A stretch of DNA of 64,000 nt, taken from NCBI RefSeq assembly GCF_006345805.1, contig NC_043000.1:79794001-79858000 (forward strand). Reading direction: 5' to 3'. Each line of letters starts with the position of its first letter. Position 1 is the first letter of the stretch. The notes under the pieces are model-generated. The model did no database searches. It was not told the origin of the DNA and worked only from the letters and a program-made list of their open reading frames with translations. Both the position numbers and the translations under genes were made by a program. The DNA is from Octopus sinensis (taxonomy: Eukaryota). Positions 30,707 to 30,940 of this stretch are shown here, piece after piece.

Positions 30707-30940
30707 TACTTTATTTTAAGCAGCAGAAAATTCAACAAAATCTGTTACTCTGAGTTTCTCGTTGCCGTTCATCAGACAGTTTTTGCTAGAATGGAACTGT
30801 CTGATGAACGGCAACGAGAAACTCAGAGTAACAGATTTTGTTGAATTTTCTGCTGCTTAAAATAAAGCATATTACTCTACCACTGGTATTTGAGTACTCT
30901 TTTTTTCCACCTTGTTTCACATTTATGTGTTTACTCCGGT
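30707..30940. mobile_element. TA-flanked palindromic insert with an HHR on each strand
   Basis: Near-perfect inverted repeat of about 75 bp (30707-30781 / 30795-30870), then a unique 3' tail to 30940. Confidence 0.85.
30797..30834 (+). ncRNA. Minimal type-I hammerhead ribozyme (mirror copy 30742-30779 on minus)
   Basis: CUGU-CUGAUGA-A-CG(GCAA)CG-A-GAAA-CUCAGAG-UA|ACAG. Stem I is CUGU/ACAG and the predicted cut is after 30830. Confidence 0.75.

What the first reader, a model, noticed from the sequence alone, without database searches (positions are those of the whole stretch)
30707..30940. Compact 230-bp foldback element with a GCAA-capped minimal HHR on both strands
Seen: inverted repeat of about 75 bp with a 13-nt spacer. 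The inversion point lies just upstream of HHR stem I. Helix III is CUC-A-GAG, too tight to form intramolecularly. Stem II has only 2 bp plus a GNRA loop and an A-A closing mismatch. Inference: an obligate-dimer ribozyme marking the processed end of a PLE pLTR or retrozyme RNA.
Basis: partly seen in the sequence, partly recalled or inferred. Interest (0 to 1): 0.7.

Follow-up and report, generated by a model that had tools for sequence, protein, structure and literature searches.

The report
Penelope-like retroelement foldback carrying minimal hammerhead
A short folded-back DNA repeat, with many related copies in this animal genome (likely an octopus), carries a tiny hammerhead ribozyme motif in both arms; it is likely the leftover end of a Penelope-like jumping gene, a known kind of remnant, and its ribozyme is predicted to be locked inactive at this site.

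Summary
Perfect 73-bp inverted arms (30709-30781, 30795-30867) enclose a 13-nt spacer. A 72-nt one-sided tail follows and (TA)n lies on both sides. Each arm holds a type I minimal hammerhead: 2-bp GNRA helix II, A·A at its base, 9-nt palindromic helix III. Such motifs are far above chance (5 sites versus 0.01 in shuffles). The element belongs to a high-copy family (282-6281 contigs in each of 4 runs laid). The core is conserved, U4C aside, but stem II's A-U pair is restored in only 13-40%. Other copies fold back at scattered points, and this copy extends upstream of both cleavage sites, so it does not mark a processed end. Two RNAs are predicted to fold as a double hammerhead, but a read-through transcript here buries the ribozyme in a -138 kcal/mol hairpin. 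Best reading: a 5'-truncated, inverted pLTR-plus-tail insertion of a Penelope-like element (PLE), a described architecture. Its parent ORF was not found. A genuine RT+GIY-YIG PLE and several similar foldbacks lie nearby. Host likely an octopod. Ordinary; the bolder angle is PLE foldbacks as a major source of octopus dsRNA for hyper-editing.

The parts
30573..30708 (.). Left (TA)n/(CA)n microsatellite, likely the insertion target; also holds the 3' end of the upstream PLE
   Evidence: Sequence. Family contigs run into (TA)n at 30702 (37, 31 and 18 contigs in X5, X3, X15)
30709..30781 (-). Inverted arm: 5'-truncated copy of the element end without the tail (short 3' end)
   Evidence: 73-bp perfect complement of 30795-30867
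30742..30779 (-). Minimal type I hammerhead, minus-strand copy (core 30775-30769, predicted cut 30746|30745); keeps the native long helix I with the spacer
30782..30794 (-). Spacer = the family's own sequence upstream of the ribozyme, read on the minus strand; the junction to the right arm shares 3-5 nt of microhomology at 30795-30799
   Evidence: Family contigs follow the spacer to 30797-30799 and then leave with unrelated letters (loose ends in X3, X15); spacer extends helix I by 8 bp
30795..30867 (+). Direct arm: 5'-truncated element end
30797..30834 (+). Minimal type I hammerhead, plus-strand copy: helix I 30797-30800/30831-30834, core 30801-30807, A30808·A30817, 2-bp helix II with GCAA loop 30811-30814, GAAA 30818-30821, palindrome 30821-30829, predicted cut 30830|30831
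30868..30939 (+). 72-nt one-sided tail (long 3' end); the most widely shared part of the family
   Evidence: No inverted partner; highest summed depth 30862-30933 and many related contigs diverging upstream of 30860-30864; folding not above shuffles, z -0.89
30940..31048 (.). Right (TA)n microsatellite, separating this element from a second foldback

Best explanation
This is likely a dead, 5'-truncated insertion of a Penelope-like retroelement family: the last ~145 nt of the element (hammerhead-bearing pLTR end plus tail) joined head-to-head to an inverted, tail-less second copy of the same end, sitting in a (TA)n tract. Shown: geometry, motif, high copy number, two fixed 3' ends at (TA)n-like flanks, scattered fold-back points, microhomology at this junction. 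Inferred mechanism: a PLE RT/GIY-YIG protein nicks AT-rich DNA on both strands and starts cDNA at two internal sites of the RNA (one gives the tailed end, one the short end); both cDNAs stop early and are joined by a few nucleotides of microhomology, giving the foldback. The RNA template was uncleaved at this ribozyme. In full-length or tandem family RNA the motif is predicted to cleave only as a double hammerhead through the palindromic helix III, probably weakly or with protein help. At this locus it is predicted to be silenced, because any read-through RNA makes a 73-bp hairpin, which would instead be an ADAR or small-RNA substrate.
For: Architecture matches descriptions read here: adjacent inverted, shorter pLTR plus an optional one-sided tail (PMC3846280); inverted 5'-truncated copy, tail at one end, (TA)n bias (PMC8557442); min-HHRs 100-700 bp apart on opposite strands and solo motifs from truncated PLEs (PMC4209133); two internal RT start sites, AT-rich nicking on both strands, uncleaved RNA as dominant template (PMC11167929). 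Family data: 6281, 3860, 1749 and 282 contigs laid in 4 runs; fixed short end into (TA)n; 15 shown of 60 joints all differ and have depths of 50-130. Of the 4 variable sites seen in all four runs within the ribozyme and its helix I, 3 fall on unpaired or free positions (11.1, N of GNRA, helix I mismatch). Dimer fold. A true PLE (RT, CxC..CP linker, GIY-YIG) ends 140 nt upstream at its own palindromic-helix-III HHR in the same (TA)n; its second copy has an inverted 3'-end segment at 15343-15626.
Against: No sequence link to a coding PLE: the read-through peptide from the ribozyme AUG found no homologue, and a profile of PLE N-termini did not place the element among its top 25 hits. A PSSM ranked the tail frame 680 of 127,852 on the full block and 6 of 127,930 only on columns chosen afterwards. 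The tail is 72 nt, not the 30-40 nt of the papers read. Helix II lacks the conserved G10.1-C11.1 pair and the extra 5' nucleotide of the PLE min-HHR consensus, and U4C occurs in some copies, so the motif may be decaying. 4 of 15 inverted-arm ends lie within 4 nt of the cut site, a weak hint that some templates were cleaved. No listed contig spans the whole element, so this exact junction is not independently confirmed. No target-site duplication can be read in (TA)n.
Confidence: 0.75

Rival explanations
1. It is a piece of a non-coding, non-autonomous PLE derivative (retrozyme-like or solo-pLTR family) that is mobilised in trans by octopod PLE proteins and never had its own ORF. The mechanism of insertion would be the same as in the best explanation.
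For: No parent ORF found. Many related contigs share only the last ~85 nt, as expected for a cis-acting end. Retrozymes are reported as pLTR derivatives with solo monomers (bioRxiv 2026.07.22.740005). pLTRs suffice in cis (PMC3846280).
Against: No head-to-tail repeat of the unit in the window. The HHR is minimal, not the canonical tertiary-contact type of retrozymes (PMC7229834). Upstream context of the family was seen for only about 30 letters.
Confidence: 0.15
2. One reading: the ribozyme cut defines the RNA end, and the fold-back point records that processed end.
For: The motif is conserved and dimer-competent in silico. 4 of 15 shown inverted-arm ends and 2 of 15 direct-arm starts lie within about 5 nt of the cut site.
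Against: This copy contains 36-45 nt upstream of the cut on both arms. The other joints scatter over 50-120 nt. In the one PLE tested in vitro no RNA ends were found at the cut site and uncleaved RNA was the template (PMC11167929).
Confidence: 0.05
3. A palindromic MITE or foldback DNA transposon inserted at TA, with the hammerhead match incidental.
For: Long terminal inverted arms, TA-rich flanks, high copy number.
Against: One-sided 72-nt tail; each joint differs and is at single-copy-like depth; the motif is far above chance and recurs at the same position in unrelated families of the window.
Confidence: 0.03
4. Library or assembly fold-back artefact (chimeric amplification or mis-join in a microsatellite).
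For: Two near-perfect palindromes side by side; no listed contig spans the element.
Against: The inverted arm stops exactly at a family-wide end that runs into (TA)n; comparable joints appear in two independent DNA runs; older foldbacks of 78-96% arm identity lie in the same window.
Confidence: 0.02

Closest known systems
PLE minimal hammerheads (min-HHR; Cervera and De la Pena 2014, PMC4209133)
   Same: Type I, CUGAUGA/GAAA core, short helix I, palindromic helix III predicted to work as a dimer; found solo and as opposite-strand pairs 100-700 bp apart
   Different: Helix II is only 2 bp + GNRA rather than 7-8 bp as in the S. mansoni families; no G10.1-C11.1 pair (A opposite A, G or U); odd-length 9-nt palindrome with central A·A; the two cores are only about 25 nt apart
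Inverted pLTR plus tail insertions of EN+ PLEs (Pen2a_Av, PMC3846280; scheme in PMC8557442)
   Same: Adjacent inverted, shorter 3'-end copy; tail on one side only; microsatellite target
   Different: No ORF at all in this copy; tail 72 nt against 30-40 nt; parent not identified
Poseidon of Anolis (PAc; Frangieh et al. 2024, PMC11167929)
   Same: HHR about 110 nt from the element's 3' end; two 3' ends; AT-rich target; template uncleaved
   Different: No protein link or activity shown here; an AUG in the core opens only an 18-codon frame in this copy
Non-LTR retrozymes (PMC7229834; bioRxiv 2026.07.22.740005)
   Same: Non-coding, type I HHR, high copy, likely PLE-mobilised
   Different: No 150-450 bp head-to-tail tandem; head-to-head instead; minimal, not canonical, HHR
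Small PLE hammerhead variants cleaving as dimers (Lunse, Weinberg, Breaker; PMC5785218)
   Same: By its title and the review passage in PMC6765202: small PLE-linked variants, palindromic short stem III, dimer cleavage
   Different: Paper not held; whether this 2-bp helix II variant is among them could not be checked

Membership tests
Type I hammerhead (PLE min-HHR) | CUGANGA and GAAA core with NUH triplet | tested here: met
   Both arms; no difference at 5% or more in GAAA; U4C in roughly 3-17% when both arms are pooled, 22-94% on the thinly covered right arm alone
Type I hammerhead (PLE min-HHR) | Helix I closing 5' and 3' ends | tested here: met
   4 bp on +; 4 bp + mismatch + 8 bp with native upstream on -
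Type I hammerhead (PLE min-HHR) | Palindromic helix III allowing a dimer | tested here: met
   Self-duplex -7.4 kcal/mol; double hammerhead is the unconstrained dimer MFE for the - copy; for the + copy it is so in a 51-nt cut but not in a 61-nt cut
Type I hammerhead (PLE min-HHR) | G10.1-C11.1 pair and an extra nucleotide 5' of helix II (usual in the published consensus) | tested here: not met
   A at 10.1; A 41-65%, G 12-37%, U 13-40% at 11.1. A consensus trait, not a core requirement
Type I hammerhead (PLE min-HHR) | Self-cleavage at the predicted site | not testable with these tools
   Needs an assay; contigs show no RNA ends
Penelope-like element (EN+) | RT plus GIY-YIG ORF in the family | tested here: inconclusive
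   None in this copy; no homologue for the peptide; N-terminal profile negative or weak; no genome to extend the family
Penelope-like element (EN+) | HHR within the 3'-terminal pLTR | tested here: met
   Cut site 37 nt from the short end and 109 nt from the long end
Penelope-like element (EN+) | Adjacent inverted 5'-truncated copy with variable junction | tested here: met
   15 shown of 60 joints all differ
Penelope-like element (EN+) | One-sided tail | tested here: met
   72 nt, longer than the 30-40 nt described
Penelope-like element (EN+) | Target-site duplication | tested here: inconclusive
   Hidden by (TA)n on both sides
Non-LTR retrozyme | Head-to-tail tandem units each with an HHR | tested here: not met
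   Only the two inverted arms match the element in the window; other loci not seen whole
Non-LTR retrozyme | Canonical HHR with loop 1-loop 2 contacts | tested here: not met
   2-bp helix II; no Rfam hammerhead match
Non-LTR retrozyme | Expression as circular RNA | not testable with these tools
   No holder on record as RNA
MITE / foldback DNA transposon | Symmetric ends and one fixed internal structure among copies | tested here: not met
   One-sided tail; scattered joints

The most novel reading that the evidence does not exclude
Penelope-like retrotransposition in octopods routinely leaves short, near-perfect foldbacks, and these are a main source of the exceptionally abundant perfect dsRNA and A-to-I hyper-editing reported for octopus, playing the part that palindromic Harbinger repeats play in Xenopus; the same inversion silences the element's own hammerhead, here one with a helix II reduced to 2 bp and no 10.1-11.1 pair.
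Probability: 0.2. Interest if true: 0.6.

Novelty: new member of a known kind. Interest (0 to 1): 0.27.

Why it matters
As a single locus it matters little: it is a textbook-shaped PLE remnant. Two points have some value. First, the motif is an extreme natural hammerhead (2-bp helix II, free 10.1-11.1 position tolerated as A, G or U across a large family), a cheap test of how small helix II can be in a dimer. Second, near-perfect foldbacks of this kind cover about 1,360 of 64,000 bases here (arithmetic). Porath et al. 2017 (PMC5625713) found octopus exceptional in perfect dsRNA and hyper-editing but left it out of the repeat-class analysis, so PLE foldbacks are a testable candidate source.

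Tried and rejected
Rfam: 0 gathering matches in the window; no hammerhead among 76 E-value matches. Own genome not held. Exact-pattern scans found 0 loci in metagenome contigs, viral contigs and prokaryote genomes. No RNA holder listed on record; X9 is only guessed to be RNA. Idea that the core AUG starts the parent ORF, as in PAc: stops at codons 19 and 30; the first is absent in 60-88% of family depth, the second is nearly always present; no homologue among longer proteins, 1 candidate, 0 scored; rejected as unshown. Idea that the tail encodes the N-terminal KNIPIP-type motif of the neighbour's clade: not among the top 25 HMM hits, rank 680 on the full block, rank 6 on a post-hoc block; two family variants are synonymous in that frame; left as a weak hint, and that 36-codon frame was not searched against the protein database. 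Word-index search with the neighbour's GIY-YIG piece: 0 of 38 candidates scored. Pfam gave no RT family for the neighbour or 7 relatives; RT assignment rests on motifs recalled from PLE literature, on the GIY-YIG hit and on collinearity. Tail folding not above shuffles. One A>G site (30747) is 7.5% in the guessed-RNA run against 0.02% or 0 in the others: one site, unmatched individuals, not counted as editing. Earlier-findings look-ups returned nothing. Lunse et al. not held.

Full report
Observation. The window holds a perfect 73-bp inverted repeat (30709-30781 / 30795-30867) with a 13-nt spacer, 77 of 78 when extended, followed by a 72-nt tail on the right only and flanked by (TA)n. Each arm carries the same type I hammerhead motif, pointing outwards from the centre: core at 30801 on + and 30775 on -. 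Helix II is two pairs with a GCAA loop and A·A at its base; helix III is the 9-nt palindrome ACUCAGAGU; the predicted cut follows GUA at 30830. A descriptor written after seeing the motif finds 5 sites in the window and 0.01 on average in 100 block-shuffled windows. Rfam has no match.

Family. No genome is held, and four exact-pattern scans of viral, metagenome and prokaryote collections found nothing. The stretch is held by 20 of 24 listed runs, from 4 coded organisms and 10 studies; none is on record as RNA. I laid 4 of the 20 holders at 82% likeness: 6281, 3860, 1749 and 282 contigs. It is therefore a high-copy family. Summed depth is no copy number, so the shares below are rough. At the 3' base of helix II the family has A 41-65%, G 12-37%, U 13-40%; the loop varies GCAA to GGAA in 7-14%, still GNRA; the helix I mismatch position is G in 35-68%. 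GAAA, both C-G pairs and the palindrome show no difference at 5% or more in the three DNA/unknown runs. U4C is seen on the thinly covered right arm (22-94% there, about 3-17% over both arms). So the core is kept, the A-U pair is not the majority state, and part of the family may be catalytically dead.

Ends and junction. Family contigs end at the left arm's end and run into (TA)n (37, 31, 18 contigs), so there are two defined 3' ends, 72 nt apart. Contigs that follow the spacer leave the window at 30797-30799 with unrelated letters: the spacer is the family's own upstream sequence on the minus strand, and the junction shares 3-5 nt with the right arm. With it, helix I grows to 4 bp + mismatch + 8 bp. 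The 15 shown of 60 joints are all different, at depths of 50-130, with inverted-arm ends at 30785-30838 and direct-arm starts at 30803-30925. I read them as independent fold-back insertions; at 82% likeness some may be mis-laid relatives. Four inverted-arm ends fall within 4 nt of the cut site, against about 2 expected; this is a weak hint only. No listed contig spans the whole element.

Folding. The monomer hammerhead is +0.7 kcal/mol against -4.2 for an alternative. Two minus-strand motifs fold unconstrained into the double hammerhead at -26.6, against twice -12.2 for misfolded monomers. For the plus copy the result depends on the cut taken. A transcript across the whole element, from either strand, makes the antisense arm first and folds at -138 to -141 kcal/mol, with helix I pair probabilities near 1e-47. 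The two motifs are on opposite strands and cannot pair in cis.

Surroundings. Directly upstream lies a broken EN+ PLE (28464-30570): collinear with 700-900 aa relatives, GIY-YIG at E 1.8e-4, just under Pfam's cut-off. Its nearest named relatives are from Octopus bimaculoides (67%) and Argonauta hians, so the host is likely an octopod. It ends at its own hammerhead with a palindromic helix III, in the same (TA)n. A second copy has an inverted 3'-end segment at 15343-15626. Directly downstream is a 934-bp foldback (463 of 464 aligned positions identical) with a 73-nt one-sided tail and another hammerhead in each arm. A relative of it at 38636-38967 folds back without reaching any ribozyme, which shows that fold-back does not need the HHR at the junction. 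The clade label Nematis for the neighbour is recalled from its RT and linker motifs and was not tested.

Comparison. I read parts 1-2 of 4 of PMC4209133, parts 1-3 of 5 of PMC3846280, passages and the Introduction of PMC8557442, parts 1-2 of 4 of PMC11167929, part 1 of 5 and passages of bioRxiv 2026.07.22.740005, passages of PMC7229834, PMC6765202 and PMC13282606 (31 recently active Penelope-like families in O. vulgaris), and passages and one section of PMC5625713. No supplement was read; those of PMC4209133 and PMC13282606 may list this family. These papers describe every structural element seen here: opposite-strand min-HHR pairs, an adjacent inverted truncated pLTR, a one-sided tail from two RT start sites, microsatellite targets, uncleaved template. 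Differences are of degree: a 72-nt tail and a 2-bp helix II without a 10.1-11.1 pair. Ten literature searches listed no paper devoted to octopod PLE hammerheads or to PLE foldbacks as editing substrates; the library lacks most subscription journals, including the Lunse paper.

Verdict. It works like the 3' end of a PLE laid down as a truncated inverted pair (0.75), or the same from a non-coding derivative (0.15). Membership of a coding PLE family is not proven, because no ORF link was found. New member of a known kind; interest 0.27. The bolder reading, that such foldbacks feed octopus hyper-editing, is untested here (0.2).

Noticed in passing
window 31049-32055: Larger foldback (arms 31122-31586 / 31591-32055, 463 of 464 identical, 4-nt spacer, 73-nt tail on the left) with a well-formed HHR in each arm (cores 31915 +, 31261 -; 5-bp helix II) and a degenerate HHR-like motif in the opposite orientation (31387 +, 31789 -).
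   Followed up: partly
window 28464-30570 and 15343-17291: Two broken copies (93% alike) of an EN+ PLE with asparagine-rich linker; the first ends 3 nt past the predicted cut of an HHR with a 60-nt helix II (core 30488), the second has an inverted 3'-end segment at its 5' end.
   Followed up: partly
window 38220-38967: The same order as at 30158-32055: 3' end of the same PLE family (HHR core 38471, 6-bp helix I), then (TA)n, then a foldback related to the 31049 family but lacking the HHR; the 230-bp element is absent here.
   Followed up: partly
window 48438-48634 and 19716-19945: A third foldback family with an HHR (core 48582, perfect palindromic helix III) at or near the centre, arms about 79% alike.
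   Followed up: no
window 22244-22385 (-) and 48905-49044: Further HHR family with a 2-nt helix III insert (core 22373 -), one decayed copy at 48917; the 22373 copy lies between 137-bp direct repeats.
   Followed up: no
window 3157-3548, 3707-3837, 22864-22950, 13987-14049: Older foldbacks (80-82% arm identity) with no HHR found by the descriptor.
   Followed up: no
window 24638-25412: Another PLE endonuclease fragment of the same clade (tblastn E 7e-12).
   Followed up: no
window 33450-34421 (-) and 54279-56644 (-): Broken Tc1-like transposase and a LINE-like RT/endonuclease remnant (recognised from ORF translations; labels recalled, not searched).
   Followed up: no
window 30747: A>G in 7.5% of depth in the guessed-RNA run against 0.02% or none in the other three; single site, could be editing or an allele.
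   Followed up: partly
window 58796-60289: Tandem duplication of about 720 bp at 98% identity within microsatellite-rich DNA; may be an assembly duplication.
   Followed up: no
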